Made by a program: the position numbers and the translations under genes. Below the pieces are notes generated by a model. That model saw only the letters and a program-made list of their open reading frames with translations, made no database searches and was not told the origin of the DNA. Shown here piece after piece: positions 14,372-48,419 of a stretch of 64,000 bases of DNA. Within the stretch, counting starts at the first letter, position 1. Each line of letters opens with the position of its first letter. This DNA is from Patescibacteria group bacterium (lineage in GTDB: Bacteria > Patescibacteriota > UBA1384 > GWA2-35-9 > JBASTP01): positions 4,441 through 68,440 of the forward strand of contig JBASTP010000009.1 of NCBI GenBank assembly GCA_049274945.1. Direction: 5' to 3'.

Positions 14372-14443
14372 GCCTGGGTAGCTCAGTGGTAGAGCGCATC
14401 CCTGAAGAGGATGGCGTCGGTGGTTCAATTCCGCCCCCAGGCA
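14372..14443 (+). tRNA. tRNA-Phe (anticodon GAA)
   Basis: GCCTGGGTAGCTCAGTGGTAGAGC...; anticodon loop CTGAAGA; T-arm GGTGGTTCAATTCCGCC; acceptor CCCAGGC plus A. Confidence 0.9.
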
Positions 14444-14456
14444 CATTCGGTCGCTT

Positions 14457-14512
14457 AGCCCCGACGATTCGAGAAAAATTCTGATGTCGGGGTCCCGACC
14501 GGAGCGTCGGGA
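14457..14512. repeat. Double-hairpin palindromic element, copy A (CCCCGAC-loop-GTCGGGG then TCCCGAC-loop-GTCGGGA)
   Basis: Two adjacent perfect 7-bp stems in the tRNA-Phe/tRNA-Val spacer; the same stems recur at 47878..47932. Confidence 0.5.
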
Positions 14513-14536
14513 CTCAATTAGGCCCGTTAGATTCTT

Positions 14537-14608
14537 GCTCACTTAGCTCAGCGGTAGAGCATCTGGTTTACATCCAGAGGGTCGTAGGTTCGAATCCTAC
14601 AGTGAGCA
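14537..14608 (+). tRNA. tRNA-Val (anticodon TAC)
   Basis: GCTCACTTAGCTCAGCGGTAGAGC; anticodon loop TTTACAT; T-arm GTAGGTTCGAATCCTAC; acceptor AGTGAGC plus A. Confidence 0.9.
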
Positions 14609-14619
14609 CAATTCCTCTA

Positions 14620-45922: not shown

Positions 45923-47690
45923 ATACGACCCGGCCGAATTTTTCGGCCGGGCTACCGCCGCTACCCCCTTTATGGTGGCGAGTTGGGTTATGATCGTCGT
46001 GTTTTTGATTGCGTTCGGGCGGCTGGTTGATCTCCAGATTGTCAAAGGTGCCAAAAATTTCTTTCTGGCAGAAGGTAACCGGGTGCGGGAGACTCCTATT
46101 ATCGCGCCGCGCGGTATTTTCCTTGATAGGAGCGGCGAGCCAATTATCAAAAATGTGGTGCGCTATTCGCTTGCCGTAATACCGGCAGATCTGCCGCGTG
46201 ATAAAGACAGCCGGGACAGTATCCTTACTAAGATTGCGGACGCAACTTCTATAAAGCGATCGCAGATTGATGGTCAATTTAAGGACGTTAACCGCGCAAG
46301 TTTCGACCCCGTCACCGTTGCTGATAATTTGAACAAAGAAGACGCCCTGCGCCTCGAGATTTTTTTCGGCGAGCAACCCGGAGTGATCATACAAAAAATT
46401 CCAACCCGTCAGTATGAGGATGCAGGTTTTGCGCACCTTGTTGGTACCATTGGAAAAATTTCGAAACCCGAACTCCTTAAACGACCTGACTATCGAATTA
46501 CCGACTGGATTGGTAAATCAGGCCTTGAACTGGTCTATGAAGATAAGCTTAGGGGCCACCATGGCGGCACCAAGGTGGAGGTAAATGCCAAGGGTTCGGT
46601 TGTTCGATTGATCGGCGAGGTACGGCCGGAGCGGGGTGAGGATCTTAGGCTCACCGTCGACCGTAATTTGCAGAAAGCCGGCATGGAAGCGCTCGCGAAA
46701 GTGGCGCCGAAGGGCGGCGCGCTCGTTGCCATGAATCCAAAAACCGGCGAAATTTTGGCCCTTGGTTCATTTCCCGAGTTCGATGCTAATGCCATTATCG
46801 GCGGCGACGAACCTACGATCACCAGTGTATTTAACGATGCTCGCCGGCCGCTCATTAATCGAGCGATTGCTGCCGCGTTTCCTTCGGGTTCCACCATTAA
46901 GCCATTGTGGGCGACTGCGGCGCTTTCGGAACATACGATTACCGAGAACACCAAACTCGATACTTCCGCGGGATCGATCAGAATTGGCGAGTTCGTTTTT
47001 GAAGATTGGAAAACCCACGTCACAAGTGACGTCAGGCAAGCAATCGCCGAATCGAATAACATTTTTTTCTATGCGGTGGCCGGCGGTTACCAAAACATCA
47101 AAGGGCTTGGTCCGGACAAAATGAACGAGTGGGCAAAACGTTTTGGCTTGGGGGCCGATACTGGCATTGATTTGCCGGGCGAGGTGGCCGGTTTCGTTCC
47201 CTCGGCCGAGTGGAAAAAGCGCACCACCGGTGAGCGGTGGTTCGTGGGGGATAGTTACAACCTTGGGATTGGCCAAGGTAACTTGCTCATTACGCCGCTC
47301 CAGCTTACCCGCGCGGTAGCTGCTATTACTACCGGTAAGCTGGCTCGGCCCTATATTCTTTCCGGTACCCAGGCAGAGTTTAAGGAACTTGATGCTAGGC
47401 CGGAAGTGCTTGCCACGGTACGAGAAGGCATGCGGCTGGCGGTAACCTCTGGCTCAGGGAGGCAGCTTAGCGATTTCAAAGACAAAAACGGCTCTCCGGT
47501 TGAAGCCGCCGCAAAGACGGGAACTGCCCAAGCTGGCAAGGGTGACAAAACCCACGGGTGGATGGTGGCGTTCGCGCCATACCGTGATCCGGAGATCGTA
47601 GTAGTGGCGTTTGCCGAAGAAGGCGGCGAGGGCCACGCCACCGCCGGACCAGTGATAAAAGCCATGCTTGAGCAGTGGTTCAAGCGGTGA
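45891..47690 (+). CDS. mrdA: Penicillin-binding protein 2 (class B transpeptidase)
   Basis: SGSTIKP (SxxK), ESNN (SxN), KTGTAQ (KTG); N-terminal TM. Confidence 0.85.
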   Translation: MTFEDDGYIAEYDPAEFFGRATAATPFMVASWVMIVVFLIAFGRLVDLQIVKGAKNFFLAEGNRVRETPIIAPRGIFLDRSGEPIIKNVVRYSLAVIPADLPRDKDSRDSILTKIADATSIKRSQIDGQFKDVNRASFDPVTVADNLNKEDALRLEIFFGEQPGVIIQKIPTRQYEDAGFAHLVGTIGKISKPELLKRPDYRITDWIGKSGLELVYEDKLRGHHGGTKVEVNAKGSVVRLIGEVRPERGEDLRLTVDRNLQKAGMEALAKVAPKGGALVAMNPKTGEILALGSFPEFDANAIIGGDEPTITSVFNDARRPLINRAIAAAFPSGSTIKPLWATAALSEHTITENTKLDTSAGSIRIGEFVFEDWKTHVTSDVRQAIAESNNIFFYAVAGGYQNIKGLGPDKMNEWAKRFGLGADTGIDLPGEVAGFVPSAEWKKRTTGERWFVGDSYNLGIGQGNLLITPLQLTRAVAAITTGKLARPYILSGTQAEFKELDARPEVLATVREGMRLAVTSGSGRQLSDFKDKNGSPVEAAAKTGTAQAGKGDKTHGWMVAFAPYRDPEIVVVAFAEEGGEGHATAGPVIKAMLEQWFKR

Positions 47691-47850
47691 GGTATTTTAG
47701 ACGCCTCCGTCGGGCATGGCTGCGCGCCCGCCTACCGGCAGGCAGGCGTCGGGTCCCGTCGCCACCAGGCTCCTCGCGCCAACGTGCTCGCCAAAGCCTC
47801 TCCGTCGGCTATAAATGCTTTAATAATAGGGTATTGGGTATTGACAACTA

Positions 47851-47879
47851 TTTTTTTTTGCCCATAATCAACACATAAG
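47851..47879 (+). promoter_or_regulatory. Sigma70-like promoter upstream of greA (TTGACA-17-ATAATC)
   Basis: Near-consensus -35 and -10 hexamers; the transcript would begin with the double-hairpin element. Confidence 0.45.
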
Positions 47880-47932
47880 CCCCGACGTAAAGTCGGGGTC
47901 CCGACCCCCGATTGAAGATCCGGGCGTCGGGA
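47878..47932. repeat. Double-hairpin palindromic element, copy B, in the greA leader
   Basis: CCCCGAC-gtaaa-GTCGGGG then TCCCGAC-20-nt loop-GTCGGGA; same stems as 14457..14512. Confidence 0.5.
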
Positions 47933-47960: not shown

Positions 47961-48419
47961 ATGAAAACAGTCGTTATTTCTCAATCAGGATTGGATAAAC
48001 TCAAGGAAGAAGTCCAAAATCTCAAGCAGGTGCGCCGGCCCGAGATAATCGGAAGGATCGCCCAGGCGCGCGAGTACGGCGATCTTTCAGAGAACGCCGA
48101 GTACGAGGATGCCCGCAATGAACAGTCGTTTATCGAAGGGCGGATTCAAGAGCTCGAGGATATGATCAAGCATGCTCAGGTGGTGGCGAAAGCATCGGGA
48201 AACGGGCACGTTACCATTGGTTCTACGGTCAAGGTAAAACTTGACGGGAAGCCCATGACTTTTACTCTCGTAGGATCGCAAGAGGTTGATCCTGCAACCG
48301 GAAAAATCTCAATTGAGTCACCAATCGGTAAGGCGCTCCTTGGCCACAGGGTAGGGGAGACGGTTGAGGTAGAGGTCCCCGCGGGCAAGACCCGCTACCA
48401 GATCCTTTCGATCTCGTGA
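47961..48419 (+). CDS. greA: Transcription elongation factor GreA
   Basis: ISQSGLDKLKEEVQNLKQVRRPEI...EYGDLSENAEYEDARNEQSFIEGRIQELE. Confidence 0.9.
   Translation: MKTVVISQSGLDKLKEEVQNLKQVRRPEIIGRIAQAREYGDLSENAEYEDARNEQSFIEGRIQELEDMIKHAQVVAKASGNGHVTIGSTVKVKLDGKPMTFTLVGSQEVDPATGKISIESPIGKALLGHRVGETVEVEVPAGKTRYQILSIS

What the first reader, a model, noticed from the sequence alone, without database searches (positions are those of the whole stretch)
14457..14512. Conserved double-hairpin element in the tRNA-Phe/tRNA-Val spacer and again in the greA leader
Copy A (14457..14512) and copy B (47878..47932) share identical stems CCCCGAC/GTCGGGG and TCCCGAC/GTCGGGA, but the positions of the short and long loops are swapped. 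Copy A is co-transcribed with the tRNAs. Copy B begins right at the -10 of a near-consensus promoter (47851..47879), so it would form the 5' end of the greA mRNA. Further cgtcggg-like motifs occur at 47708..47760. The element could be a REP-like repeat, an RNA processing or stability element, or a protein-binding site. Swapped loop lengths with conserved stems point to structural rather than primary-sequence selection.
Basis: seen in the sequence. Interest (0 to 1): 0.6.

Follow-up and report, generated by a model that had tools for sequence, protein, structure and literature searches.

The report
Mobile double-hairpin element of CPR bacteria
The two double hairpins are real copies of a widespread and apparently undescribed selfish DNA element of ultra-small (CPR/Patescibacteria) bacteria, which inserts after 'AG' into spacers, essential protein genes and tRNA-gene remnants and usually travels with a tiny GIY-YIG nuclease gene next to tRNA genes.

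Summary
Two 53-54 nt double hairpins lie at 14459-14512 and 47880-47932. Their stems are identical and far beyond chance. Rfam has no match.

They are not locus-specific RNA signals. The same core occurs in at least 118 genomic stretches, almost all from CPR MAGs plus some Omnitrophota. Copies sit between genes, in frame and in both orientations inside GyrB, EF-G, UvrB, LeuRS, LigA and others, and antisense to riboswitches.

About a fifth of copies sit inside a duplicated 5' fragment of the tRNA gene just downstream. Window copy A is one of these. A search started from the protein found the module [tRNA 5' fragment]-[double hairpin]-[86-aa GIY-YIG nuclease ORF]-[intact tRNA] in about 64-76 of 80 metagenomic loci.

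Close Berkelbacteria relatives show empty sites: L122 for the greA leader, L206 and L205 for tRNA-Val. Insertion is clean, directly 3' of AG, with no target duplication.

Each hairpin has an invariant CCGAC/GTCGG core, two covarying outer pairs and a conserved bulge. Hairpin 2 mirrors hairpin 1.

Best reading: both window copies are ORF-less passengers of a mobile element, probably mobilised by the Slx1-like GIY-YIG nuclease. That last step is inferred. Any effect on RNA is incidental.

The parts
14459..14512 (+). Double-hairpin element, copy A. Sequence: CCCCGAC-G-[AU..upper stem..]-GTCGGGG | TCCCGAC-CGGAG-C-GTCGGGA.
   Evidence: Sequence. Covariance model R1 gives 53.6 bits, E 8.5e-9.
14449..14458 (+). 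Relic of an older tRNA-Val gene, positions 1-10 (GGTCGCTTAG). It ends in the 'AG' after which the element is inserted.
   Evidence: It is identical (10/10) to the 5' end of the only tRNA-Val in relative L206. It matches 8/10 to the window's own tRNA-Val. The same architecture is seen in about 20 other loci.
14513..14522 (+). Decayed continuation of the tRNA-Val relic, D-arm positions about 11-20 (CTCAATTAGG).
   Evidence: Compare the L205 pseudo-half GGTCGCTTAG|CTCAATTGGTTAGAGC and the L206 tRNA-Val CTCAGTTGGTAG.
14372..14444 (+). tRNA-Phe(GAA), upstream neighbour of copy A.
   Evidence: ARAGORN and Rfam.
14537..14609 (+). Functional tRNA-Val(TAC). It is a different allele (GCTCAC acceptor) from the relic.
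   Evidence: ARAGORN and Rfam. Compared with L205 and L206.
47880..47932 (+). Double-hairpin element, copy B, a solo insertion in the greA 5' leader after ...CATAAG.
   Evidence: Sequence. R1 gives 50.7 bits. The orthologous site is empty in L122 and filled in L119-121, L123 and L124, with a variable loop 1.
47841..47868 (+). Sigma-70-like promoter TTGACA-16-CATAAT of greA. The element starts 11 nt after the -10 box.
   Evidence: Promoter scan, 11 of 12 positions matched. Both hexamers are kept in all seven relatives (TTGACA invariant; the -10 reads CAAAAT in L122), including the element-free L122.
47961..48419 (+). greA, the gene downstream of copy B.
   Evidence: ORF. Homologues carry PF03449 and PF01272 and are named GreA, Candidatus Berkelbacteria.

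Best explanation
Both hairpin pairs are copies of a mobile, GC-rich double-hairpin DNA element that has colonised CPR/Patescibacteria genomes and some Omnitrophota.

**Anatomy**
- The element consists of exactly two abutting hairpins.
- Each has an 8-bp basal stem, xxCCGAC/GTCGGyy, and a variable upper stem-loop.
- Hairpin 1 has a bulged G just after CCGAC. Hairpin 2 has a bulged C just before GTCGG.
- The element therefore looks almost the same on both strands.

**Behaviour**
- It is inserted cleanly, directly 3' of an 'AG', without target-site duplication.
- It persists wherever an insertion is tolerated: intergenic DNA, 5' leaders, surface loops of proteins (translated in frame), helices of structured RNAs, and above all the D-arm sequence (TAG^CTCAG or CTCAG^TTGG) of redundant tRNA-gene fragments.

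**Full-length form**
The full-length form is the cassette [5' fragment of tRNA X]-[double hairpin]-[about 86-aa stand-alone GIY-YIG nuclease]-[intact tRNA X].

**Inferred steps**
- The nuclease has a UPF0213/Slx1-like fold and no separate DNA-binding domain. I infer that it recognises the extruded hairpins or the tRNA D-arm DNA, and drives homing or copying of the cassette and, in trans, of ORF-less hairpins.
- The intact tRNA copy keeps the host viable.

**The window copies**
- Copy A is an ORF-less hairpin inside the relic of an older tRNA-Val gene that was displaced by a new tRNA-Val allele.
- Copy B is a solo insertion at about +5 of the greA transcript.
- At RNA level they are probably passengers. 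Copy A would be removed with the tRNA spacer. Copy B would be a 5'-terminal stem-loop that could at most stabilise greA mRNA.
For: **Shown by tool results**
1. Spread: the exact 26-nt core with variable loops occurs in at least 118 stretches, nearly all CPR MAGs. There were 0 hits in 2.9 million viral contigs.
2. Contexts of 124 copies: 78 between ORFs, 23 plus 23 inside long ORFs in the two orientations.
3. The host ORFs are full-length GyrB (twice, same site, opposite orientations), EF-G, UvrB, FBA, LeuRS, LigA and CarB.
4. Core length is biased so that the whole element is a multiple of 3 in 38 of 54 ORF-covering cases against 32 of 70 elsewhere.
5. Three copies overlap c-di-GMP-I riboswitches on the opposite strand.
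6. Gain and loss among close relatives:
   - greA leader filled in the window, L119-121, L123 and L124, but empty in L122: ACATTAG|TATT against ACATAAG[element]TATT.
   - tRNA-Phe and tRNA-Val are 4 nt apart in L206, which instead carries an element upstream of tRNA-Phe.
   - L205 has the tRNA-Val 5' pseudo-half without the element.
7. Flank logo: -2 is A in 81%, -1 is G in 72% (A in 19%), with no repeat at the 3' side.
8. tRNA link: 33 of 124 copies lie within 300 nt of a tRNA, and the tRNAs lying just downstream of the element with a duplicated 5' part are all on the element's strand. The 10 nt 5' of the element repeat the downstream tRNA's own 5' end.
9. Nuclease link found independently of the hairpin: 80 metagenomic loci were fetched with the GIY-YIG protein alone.
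   - 64 have a CCGAC..GTCGG doublet within 150 nt, mostly 8-45 nt upstream of the ORF.
   - 73 have a tRNA within 150 nt, mostly starting -7 to +26 nt after the ORF.
   - The covariance model recovers variant hairpins in most of the remaining loci.
   - In 36 of 61 cases the 5' flank matches the tRNA (2 or fewer mismatches), ending at tRNA position 10/11 or 16/17.
10. Nuclease clades track tRNA type, insertion position and hairpin subtype.
11. Structure of the element: 97.1% of cells paired against 86.8% in shuffles; 108 double-sided changes against 26.6; slid controls 28-55%. Outer pairs are CG, GC, TA or AT. The bulged G is present in 76 of 83 and the bulged C in 71 of 83. The model scores both strands almost equally.
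12. The protein: Pfam GIY-YIG at E 5.6e-12. Y5, Y15, R25, H29 and E61 are invariant. The model has pLDDT 90.7. The best solved matches are UPF0213 (1zg2, 1ywl), then the structure-specific nuclease Slx1.

**Inferred, not shown**
- That the nuclease mobilises the hairpin.
- That the hairpins act as DNA structures.
Against: - No nuclease gene lies in the 64-kb window, and only 10 of 118 exact-core loci carry one. Trans-mobilisation of solo copies is therefore assumed.
- The hairpin-nuclease association could be partly passive. Cassettes create harmless tRNA fragments, which are then the preferred safe landing sites for an independently mobile hairpin. L205, a pseudo-fragment without a hairpin, fits that reading.
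- The extreme conservation of the CCGAC/GTCGG core across phylum-level lineages, and inside orthologous protein sites with diverged loops (FBA in L036 and L063), is unusual for selfish repeats. It hints at a constraint I have not identified.
- How the tRNA-specific duplication arises is unexplained.
- No transcript or protein data were available.
Confidence: 0.7

Rival explanations
1. The element is a functional RNA module selected at each site. It would act as a processing or stability signal in tRNA precursors and as a 5'-UTR regulator of greA and of the GIY-YIG ORF.
For: - It is always co-oriented with the adjacent tRNA and usually lies 8-45 nt upstream of the nuclease ORF.
- The stems covary strongly.
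- Copy B sits at the very 5' end of the predicted greA mRNA and folds well (z = -4.2).
Against: - It occurs equally often in both orientations inside ORFs (23 and 23) and antisense to riboswitches.
- It is translated in frame in essential proteins.
- It is absent from the orthologous greA leader and Phe/Val spacer of close relatives whose promoter and genes are intact.
- The mirror arrangement tRNA-ORF-hairpin exists (L111, L144).
- There is no Rfam family.
Confidence: 0.12
2. It is a REP/REPIN-type or IS200/IS605-type element moved by an HUH (Y1) transposase such as a RAYT. The GIY-YIG gene would be only a neighbour.
For: - The hairpins carry a conserved bulge.
- The two units are inverted, as in a REPIN.
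- Insertion is 3' of a short conserved sequence without target duplication, as in IS200/IS605.
- The 5' flank is often (G/T)TAG, like the GTAG of E. coli REPs. This last point is from my own knowledge.
Against: - A tblastn search with an IS200 TnpA sequence, recalled from memory, found no Y1-transposase-like ORF in 1.13 Mb of loci carrying the element.
- The gene that recurs next to the element is GIY-YIG.
- Many copies are intragenic, unlike REPs.
- The TAG flank is explained by tRNA positions 8-10 and by stop codons.
Confidence: 0.08
3. The hairpin pair with its tRNA-matching flanks acts as a guide or splint for the minimal nuclease. The form would be [10-16 nt identical to the target tRNA gene]-scaffold-[6-10 nt identical to the next target bases], as RNA or single-stranded DNA. 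This would be a nucleic-acid-guided GIY-YIG system.
For: - The architecture is guide-scaffold-guide, directly upstream of an 86-aa nuclease that has no DNA-binding domain.
- The scaffold is conserved while the flanks change with the target tRNA.
Against: - The flanks decay. 25 of 61 have 3 or more mismatches in 10. Window copy A has 2 of 10 against its own tRNA-Val and retains an older allele.
- Solo elements in ORFs have no such flanks.
- The flanks are fully explained as halves of an interrupted target site.
Confidence: 0.06
4. It is a chromosomal binding site for a conserved DNA-binding protein, for example an operator or nucleoid-protein site built from GTCGG-N4-CCGAC palindromes.
For: - The core is strictly conserved and dyad-symmetric.
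- Four alternating CCGAC/GTCGG half-sites are present.
Against: - Copies occur inside coding regions and at non-orthologous places in relatives.
- The half-sites are separated by variable-length inserts of 4 to more than 30 nt that pair with themselves. This argues for extruded hairpins, not a fixed-spacing duplex site.
Confidence: 0.03

Closest known systems
Rickettsia palindromic elements (RPE; Ogata et al. 2000, from my own knowledge)
   Same: Short palindromic selfish DNA in a reduced genome. Copies are found in intergenic DNA, in RNA genes, and in frame inside essential protein genes, where they are translated.
   Different: The sequence and host are unrelated. RPEs are single long hairpins of about 100-150 bp, with no known associated nuclease gene and no tRNA-fragment architecture.
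Mitochondrial GC clusters and double-hairpin elements: yeast GC42 and var1 clusters, Allomyces DHEs, Neurospora GC-rich palindromes flanking tRNA genes
   Same: GC-rich hairpin or double-hairpin elements in AT-richer small genomes. They are mobile between closely related genomes. Yeast clusters use an 'AG' target (PMC4478555). Allomyces DHEs lack flanking duplications (PMC2800124). Palindromes flank tRNA genes in Neurospora mitochondria (reference B17 in PMC2800124).
   Different: Those are organellar and this is bacterial. Yeast clusters duplicate the AG, but no duplication is seen here. No conserved CCGAC core is known for them, and no dedicated GIY-YIG-tRNA cassette has been described for them as far as I know.
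REP/REPIN elements with RAYT transposases (PMC3116915, PMC3337134)
   Same: Two inverted hairpin units form the mobile doublet. Copies are non-autonomous and presumably moved in trans by a single-copy enzyme. The hairpins are bulged.
   Different: REPs are extragenic and species-specific, and are partnered with a Y1 HUH transposase. Here the partner gene is a GIY-YIG nuclease, copies are often intragenic, and the core is shared across phylum-level lineages.
Free-standing GIY-YIG homing endonucleases, for example phage T4 SegB in the tRNA gene cluster (PMC2330249)
   Same: A GIY-YIG ORF sits next to or between tRNA genes. tRNA-gene DNA is the apparent target. Flanking tRNA sequence is co-converted or replaced, as seen for the window's tRNA-Val allele.
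   Different: Seg and I-TevI enzymes are over 200 aa with a C-terminal DNA-binding domain. This one is about 86 aa of catalytic core only. It comes with a conserved double hairpin at the interrupted site and a duplicated tRNA part.
UPF0213 stand-alone GIY-YIG proteins (PDB 1zg2, 1ywl) and the Slx1 structure-specific nuclease
   Same: These are the best sequence and fold matches. The catalytic Tyr, Tyr, Arg, His and Glu residues are conserved.
   Different: The function of UPF0213 is unknown. Slx1 works with Slx4 on branched DNA in eukaryotes. No link of either to hairpin repeats or tRNA genes is known to me.
IS200/IS605 family (from my own knowledge)
   Same: Insertion is strand-specific, directly 3' of a short target, without duplication. 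The elements have sub-terminal hairpins.
   Different: That family needs a Y1 TnpA, and none was found here. Its element ends are separated by genes. The two hairpins here abut.

Membership tests
Any Rfam RNA family | A match to a curated covariance model. | tested here: not met
   At the gathering threshold the window gives only tRNAs. In E-value mode up to 10 on both copies, there is nothing for copy A and only sub-threshold chance hits for copy B.
REP/REPIN-RAYT | Extragenic location. | tested here: not met
   46 of 124 copies lie inside long ORFs. Eight of those ORFs were verified as full-length housekeeping proteins.
REP/REPIN-RAYT | An associated Y1 (HUH) transposase gene flanked by the repeats. 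| tested here: not met
   No Y1-like ORF was found in 1.13 Mb of loci. The query was recalled from memory, so this is a weak test. The recurrent neighbour is GIY-YIG.
REP/REPIN-RAYT | A doublet of inverted hairpin units. | tested here: met
   Hairpin 2 is the reverse-complement form of hairpin 1, with the bulged G and bulged C mirrored. The model scores both strands alike.
RPE-like in-frame palindromic insertions (analogy, not sequence family) | Insertions inside protein genes keep the reading frame, and the host protein is otherwise intact. | tested here: met
   GyrB, EF-G, UvrB, FBA, LeuRS, LigA and CarB have Pfam domains on both sides of the insert. Element length is biased to multiples of 3.
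RPE (sequence family of Rickettsia) | Sequence similarity to RPE consensus sequences and a Rickettsiales host. | not tested
   The host is CPR (Berkelbacteria). No RPE sequences were available for comparison, and the core motif differs from what I recall.
Mobile DNA element (general) | Presence/absence polymorphism at orthologous sites with precise boundaries. | tested here: met
   greA leader: empty in L122, filled in six others. tRNA-Val 5' site: filled in the window, empty in L206 and L205. tRNA-Phe 5' site: filled in L206, empty in the window.
Mobile DNA element (general) | Multiple copies per genome. | tested here: met
   There are 2 copies in this 64-kb window. Several MAGs contribute 2-4 separate contigs or copies, for example JBBTTN01, JANLIP01 and CAYHDT01.
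Free-standing GIY-YIG homing endonuclease cassette | A GIY-YIG catalytic domain with an intact active site. | tested here: met
   PF01541 at E 5.6e-12. Y5, Y15, R25, H29 and E61 are invariant in 32 sequences. The fold model has pLDDT 90.7 and matches UPF0213, Slx1 and UvrC-N.
Free-standing GIY-YIG homing endonuclease cassette | The ORF is inserted at or next to its target in a conserved gene, and the host gene function is preserved. | tested here: met
   The ORF lies between a tRNA fragment and an intact copy of the same tRNA in most of 80 loci. The stop codon is often the tRNA's own TAG.
Free-standing GIY-YIG homing endonuclease cassette | Site-specific cleavage of the cassette-less allele, and an extra DNA-binding domain. 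| not testable with these tools
   No biochemistry was possible. The protein is only about 86 aa with no second domain, which is atypical for known homing GIY-YIG enzymes.
Window copies as members of the cassette | A GIY-YIG ORF adjacent to the hairpin. | tested here: not met
   There is no GIY-YIG homologue anywhere in the window. Both window copies are solo. Copy A still has the tRNA-fragment architecture.
Integron attC site | A single imperfect hairpin RYYYAAC...GTTRRRY at cassette ends, in arrays next to intI. | tested here: not met
   The core resembles it (YCCCGAC/GTCGGGR). However, the elements are doublets, scattered, intragenic, and not in ORF-attC arrays. No integrase was looked for.
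Intrinsic terminator | A GC hairpin followed by a U-tract. | tested here: not met
   No + strand terminator was called at either copy. The only call is on the - strand at 47898-47880, with a poor tail. The downstream logo has no T-run.

The most novel reading that the evidence does not exclude
The double hairpin is the scaffold of a guide. The pseudo-tRNA bases on its two sides (tRNA positions 1-10/16 and 11/17-2x) would pair, as RNA or single-stranded DNA, with the tRNA gene. That would position the 86-aa, domain-less GIY-YIG nuclease exactly at the AG^C junction. This would be a nucleic-acid-guided homing system built on the smallest known nuclease fold. It would explain how one conserved scaffold serves at least ten different tRNA targets.
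Probability: 0.06. Interest if true: 0.95.

Novelty: new variant of a known kind. Interest (0 to 1): 0.74.

Why it matters
**If correct**
- CPR/Patescibacteria have the most streamlined genomes known among free-standing bacterial lineages. Yet they would carry a pan-lineage selfish element that is written into essential proteins such as GyrB, EF-G, UvrB and aminoacyl-tRNA synthetases, into riboswitches and into tRNA loci.
- That gives a concrete source for the many unexplained small insertions in CPR proteins.
- It gives a marker for recent genome change in MAGs.
- It gives a first biological context (tRNA-gene cassettes with a structured DNA partner) for the large, unannotated family of stand-alone UPF0213-type GIY-YIG nucleases. 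This family has at least 1999 clusters in CPR alone.
- It offers a bacterial counterpart to mitochondrial GC clusters and double-hairpin elements, whose mobility mechanism has been debated for decades. Here a candidate enzyme can be expressed and tested.

**Practical consequences**
- The hairpins and tRNA fragments will confuse tRNA and gene callers in CPR genomes.

**For this window**
- The finding is benign. Neither tRNA nor greA expression needs the element.

Tried and rejected
- **Known RNA family:** Rfam at the gathering threshold and in E-value mode gave nothing.
- **tRNA intron in the D-arm:** cutting the element out in silico and re-running ARAGORN restored a tRNA across the junction in only 1 of 124 cases (L080). 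In the others an intact tRNA lies 14-275 nt downstream, so the interrupted piece is a duplicate fragment.
- **Phage origin or spread:** the exact-core pattern has 0 hits in IMG/VR.
- **HUH/Y1 transposase partner:** none was found, though the test was weak.
not recognised by the model and the motif count is at chance. The block instead holds a degenerate copy of a different palindrome family.
- **Promoter-proximal placement as a rule:** promoter-like sites lie upstream of 10 of 61 cassette hairpins against 7 of 61 control windows, which is inconclusive. The distances do cluster at 18-21 nt.
- **Terminator, attC site, operator:** rejected on anatomy and context; see the membership table.
- **Literature:** no paper holds the core sequence. 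No paper combines Patescibacteria/CPR with palindromic in-frame insertions, RPE, MITE/REPIN/RAYT, or GIY-YIG plus tRNA in a relevant way. The recent survey of tRNA genes in Patescibacteria does not mention hairpins, palindromes or GIY-YIG (PMC13011429). One search was wasted on a bad term.
- **L205 225-aa ORF:** Pfam gave only weak HTH hits, so no claim is made.
Full report

Yes. Copy A reads CCCCGAC-GATTCGAGAAAAATTCTGAT-GTCGGGG|TCCCGAC-CGGAGC-GTCGGGA at 14459-14512. Copy B reads CCCCGAC-GTAAA-GTCGGGG|TCCCGAC-CCCCGATTGAAGATCCGGGC-GTCGGGA at 47880-47932.

- CCCGAC-N(3-30)-GTCGGG occurs four times in the window against 0.11 expected.
- The 14-mer junction GTCGGGGTCCCGAC occurs exactly twice.
- Copy A lies between tRNA-Phe and tRNA-Val.
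- Copy B lies 11 nt after the -10 box of TTGACA-16-CATAAT (47841-47868) and ends 28 nt before the greA ATG.
- The extra 'cgtcggg' motifs at 47708-47760 are not copies.
- Rfam knows nothing like the element.

**2. It is not peculiar to this genome or to these two genes.**

My own rough estimate of the chance expectation for 26 fixed bases in that collection is below one.

- Nearly all hits are MAGs of Patescibacteria/CPR: Saccharibacteria, Kaiser-, Nomura-, Adler-, Wolfe-, Yanofsky-, Sung-, Taylor-, Doudna-bacteria, Paceibacteria and others.
- A few are Omnitrophota.
- A few carry other taxonomic labels that may be binning errors.
- The window itself is Candidatus Berkelbacteria, judged by its GreA and S1 proteins.
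- There were no hits in 2.9 million viral contigs.

**3. Anatomy.**

Across 120 copies the flanks are A (81%) and G (72%) immediately 5' of the element. There is no repeat of these bases at the 3' side. The element is exactly two hairpins.

I measured covariation on 83 hairpin pairs collected independently of the exact core (see section 6). Each basal stem has 8 pairs:
- The five inner pairs are always CCGAC/GTCGG.
- The two outer pairs covary freely. In hairpin 1 the 7th pair is CG 47, GC 24, TA 7, and the 8th pair is CG 44, AT 12, TA 11, GC 8. Hairpin 2 behaves similarly.
- A G is bulged right after CCGAC in hairpin 1 (76 of 83).
- A C is bulged right before GTCGG in hairpin 2 (71 of 83).
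- The variable 'loops' are upper stems that pair only if the bulge is skipped: 3.7 consecutive pairs against 0.6 in shuffles.

On a curated alignment of 71 short copies:
- 97.1% of cells pair, against 86.8% in shuffles and 28-55% for slid partners.
- There are 108 double-sided changes against 26.6.

Hairpin 2 is thus the mirror image of hairpin 1. The covariance model scores the two strands of each window copy almost equally, 53.6 against 45.2 bits and 50.7 against 45.9 bits.

Variants exist with compensating core-adjacent changes (TCCGAC/GTCGGA, GCCGAC/GTCGGC). Nested copies also exist.

**4. Where it sits.**

Of 124 copies:
- 78 lie between long ORFs.
- 46 lie inside long ORFs, 23 in each orientation.

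The ORFs are real. Pfam finds complete GyrB (two species, same site before the C-terminal domain, opposite element orientations), EF-G, UvrB, class II aldolase, LeuRS, LigA and CarB, with domains on both sides of the insert.

The element length is biased to multiples of three in ORFs (38 of 54 against 32 of 70). Where the length is not a multiple of three, the frame is still kept. The inserts are therefore translated rather than spliced.

In three loci the element overlaps a c-di-GMP-I riboswitch on the opposite strand.

This is the behaviour of selfish palindromic DNA that survives wherever a loop tolerates it, as in Rickettsia RPEs or mitochondrial GC clusters.

**5. It comes and goes between close relatives.**

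*greA leader.*
- The element is present in the window, in three 99% relatives, and in the 91% and 85% relatives. Loop 1 differs among them (GTAAA, GCAAG, GCTTCA). Hairpin 2 is the same in all, apart from one loop base missing in L124.
- The 92% relative L122 has ...ACATTAG|TATTTC... where the window has ...ACATAAG[element]TATTCG....
- The promoter (TTGACA and an A/T-rich -10) is kept in all, so the element is dispensable for greA.

*tRNA locus.*
- In relative L206 (S1 protein 75% identical), tRNA-Phe and tRNA-Val are 4 nt apart with no element.
- L206 carries an element upstream of tRNA-Phe instead.
- L205 (91%) has a tRNA-Val 5' pseudo-half next to its tRNA-Val, without any element.

**6. The tRNA connection and the nuclease.**

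In about 20 of the 124 copies the 10 nt before the element repeat the 5' end of a tRNA gene lying 14-275 nt downstream on the same strand. The bases after the element continue that tRNA's D-arm. The layout is [tRNA 1-10]-element-[11 to about 21 or 31]-spacer-[intact tRNA], or the same with the break at position 16/17. Cutting the element out does not restore a tRNA, except in L080. The interrupted piece is therefore a redundant fragment.

Where the spacer is about 270 nt, it holds an 86-aa ORF with a GIY-YIG domain (L104, L058, L031, L102). A mirror form, tRNA-ORF-element-[3' fragment], occurs in L111. In L058 and L031 the ORF's stop codon is the tRNA's own U8-A9-G10.

I then started from the protein alone. 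80 metagenomic loci were fetched with an alignment of five such ORFs.
- 64 have a CCGAC..GTCGG doublet within 150 nt, almost always 8-45 nt upstream of the ORF.
- 73 have a tRNA within 150 nt, almost always starting -7 to +26 nt after the ORF.
- The covariance model recovers divergent hairpins in most of the rest, so roughly 76 of 80 loci have one. The weakest of these hits are marginal.
- In 36 of 61 cases the 5' flank equals the tRNA's 5' end, ending at position 10/11 (16 times) or 16/17 (16 times).
- Nuclease clades go with particular tRNAs, break positions and hairpin subtypes. The ORF, hairpin and target therefore evolve as a unit.

*The protein.*
- The family is large, with at least 1999 clusters, and is annotated only as 'GIY-YIG nuclease family protein'.
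- It keeps the catalytic Tyr, Tyr, Arg, His and Glu residues.
- It models confidently (pLDDT 90.7).
- It is closest to the UPF0213 proteins 1zg2 and 1ywl, then to the structure-specific nuclease Slx1 and to UvrC-N.
- It has no second domain.

**7. What the two window copies are.**

*Copy A* has the tRNA architecture without the ORF.
- GGTCGCTTAG|element|CTCAATTAGG is the relic of a tRNA-Val whose 5' end is still the functional one in L206 (10 of 10 identical).
- That 5' end also survives as a longer pseudo-half in L205.
- The working tRNA-Val of the window and of L205 is a different allele, GC(T/C)CAC.
- So the resident gene was displaced by an incoming tRNA-Val, as expected for homing with co-conversion. 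The hairpin sits at the TAG^CTCA site of the leftover.
- L205 shows that the fragment can exist without the hairpin. The hairpin therefore has mobility of its own.

*Copy B* is a solo insertion after AAG at about +5 of the greA transcript.

No GIY-YIG gene lies in the window.

**8. Mechanism: shown and inferred.**

*Shown:*
- It is a multi-copy, pan-CPR double hairpin.
- Insertion is clean, 3' of AG, with gain and loss between relatives.
- It is tolerated in proteins and RNAs.
- It is tightly and stereotypically linked with a stand-alone GIY-YIG ORF at tRNA genes.
- There is partial tRNA duplication and tRNA allele replacement.

*Inferred:*
- The nuclease cuts tRNA D-arm DNA and/or the extruded hairpins. 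Its nearest characterised fold relative, Slx1, cuts branched DNA.
- Repair from a cassette-bearing copy spreads the cassette.
- The hairpin at the break point destroys the site in the leftover fragment.
- ORF-less hairpins are copied in trans to other AG sites.

*RNA level:*
- Copy A would be discarded with the spacer during tRNA maturation.
- Copy B would form a 5'-terminal double stem-loop that leaves the start region unpaired. It could at most stabilise the mRNA, as 5' stem-loops are known to do. That is general knowledge, not tested here.

*Unexplained:*
- How the tRNA-specific duplication is generated.
- What keeps CCGAC/GTCGG invariant even inside orthologous protein sites with diverged loops (L036 and L063).
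- Whether the hairpin-nuclease link is causal, or partly a consequence of tRNA fragments being the only safe D-arm targets.

**9. Comparison with what is known, and novelty.**

The element works like several known systems:
- RPEs.
- Mitochondrial GC clusters and double-hairpin elements. These share the AG target in yeast and the lack of duplication in Allomyces (PMC4478555, PMC2800124).
- REP/REPIN-RAYT pairs.
- Free-standing GIY-YIG homing endonucleases such as T4 SegB in a tRNA cluster (PMC2330249).

It is not a member of any of them by the tests in the membership table. The combination appears undescribed: a bacterial double hairpin with a fixed core, a minimal UPF0213-type nuclease, and a tRNA-restoring cassette. 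No paper in the library holds the sequence or the combination. The 2026 survey of tRNA genes in Patescibacteria does not mention it. I cannot exclude a description in literature outside this library.

**Verdict.**

It is a new variant of a known kind, selfish palindromic DNA with a homing-type nuclease. The two window copies themselves are ordinary solo members with no demonstrated function.

Noticed in passing
window 47690-47830 (core 47727-47746): A GC-rich block lies between the PBP2 stop codon and the greA promoter. It is absent from relatives L123 and L124, diverged in L122, and differs by a 20-nt indel from the 99% relatives. It contains CCCGCCTACCGGCAGGCAGG. This is a degenerate copy of a second palindrome family, CCTGCC(T)GCCGGCAGGCAGG, which occurs 24 times in 15 of the fetched loci against about 1 expected. 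One such copy lies in frame in a release-factor-2-like ORF (identified by eye) (L104 2601-2620), and others lie inside loops of the double hairpin (L010, L020).
   Followed up: partly
L205 2215-2530 (- strand): In the 91% relative, tRNA-Phe is interrupted after its anticodon by a group I intron (Rfam RF00028, 66 bits, 2254-2500). The whole Phe/Val region is inverted relative to the S1 gene. A 225-aa ORF (1484-2161, -) with only weak HTH hits lies between the two tRNAs, and its 3' end overlaps the tRNA-Val pseudo-half.
   Followed up: partly
window 14537-14609 compared with L206 122-195: The window's functional tRNA-Val(TAC) has a different acceptor and anticodon-stem sequence from the tRNA-Val of L206. 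The relic upstream of the window's gene keeps the L206-type 5' end. This indicates replacement of the tRNA allele rather than simple divergence.
   Followed up: partly
L045 6298-6397, L075 1394-1500, L097 2221-2339: The double hairpin overlaps a c-di-GMP-I riboswitch aptamer (RF01051, 41-43 bits) on the opposite strand. The MAGs are labelled Omnitrophota or Planctomycetales. All three, together with L117, share the same flanks.
   Followed up: no
L058 3570-3830; L031 6253-6513 (-): The GIY-YIG ORF runs into the downstream tRNA and uses tRNA positions 8-10 (TAG) as its stop codon. RNase P cleavage of the precursor would therefore remove the stop codon from the mRNA.
   Followed up: no
L148 1755-1828; L035 about 2274-2346: ARAGORN calls a tRNA with anticodon UUA ('tRNA-Stop'), a possible UAA suppressor or a miscalled tRNA-Lys relative. 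It lies directly downstream of a hairpin/GIY-YIG cassette. Rfam confirms that both are tRNAs.
   Followed up: no
L102 647-745; L003 2140-2340; L104 1856-2450: Nested and tandem forms occur. In L102 one element sits inside the loop of another. In L003 the unit element plus tRNA-Thr 5' fragment is repeated in tandem. In L104 three hairpin-bearing tRNA-Thr fragments surround one GIY-YIG ORF and one intact tRNA-Thr.
   Followed up: partly
L036 5877-5918 and L063 4583-4624: The same site of class II fructose-bisphosphate aldolase carries the element in two distant CPR lineages. The stems are identical but the loops and flanking codons differ. This means either independent insertion at a hot spot or conservation or homogenisation of the core inside a coding region.
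   Followed up: no
L033, L078, L100, L105, L114 (element 1-2 nt after the upstream ORF): Several copies begin immediately after a TAG or TAA stop codon. The stop codon supplies the 'AG/AA' target, so gene 3' ends are frequent landing sites.
   Followed up: no
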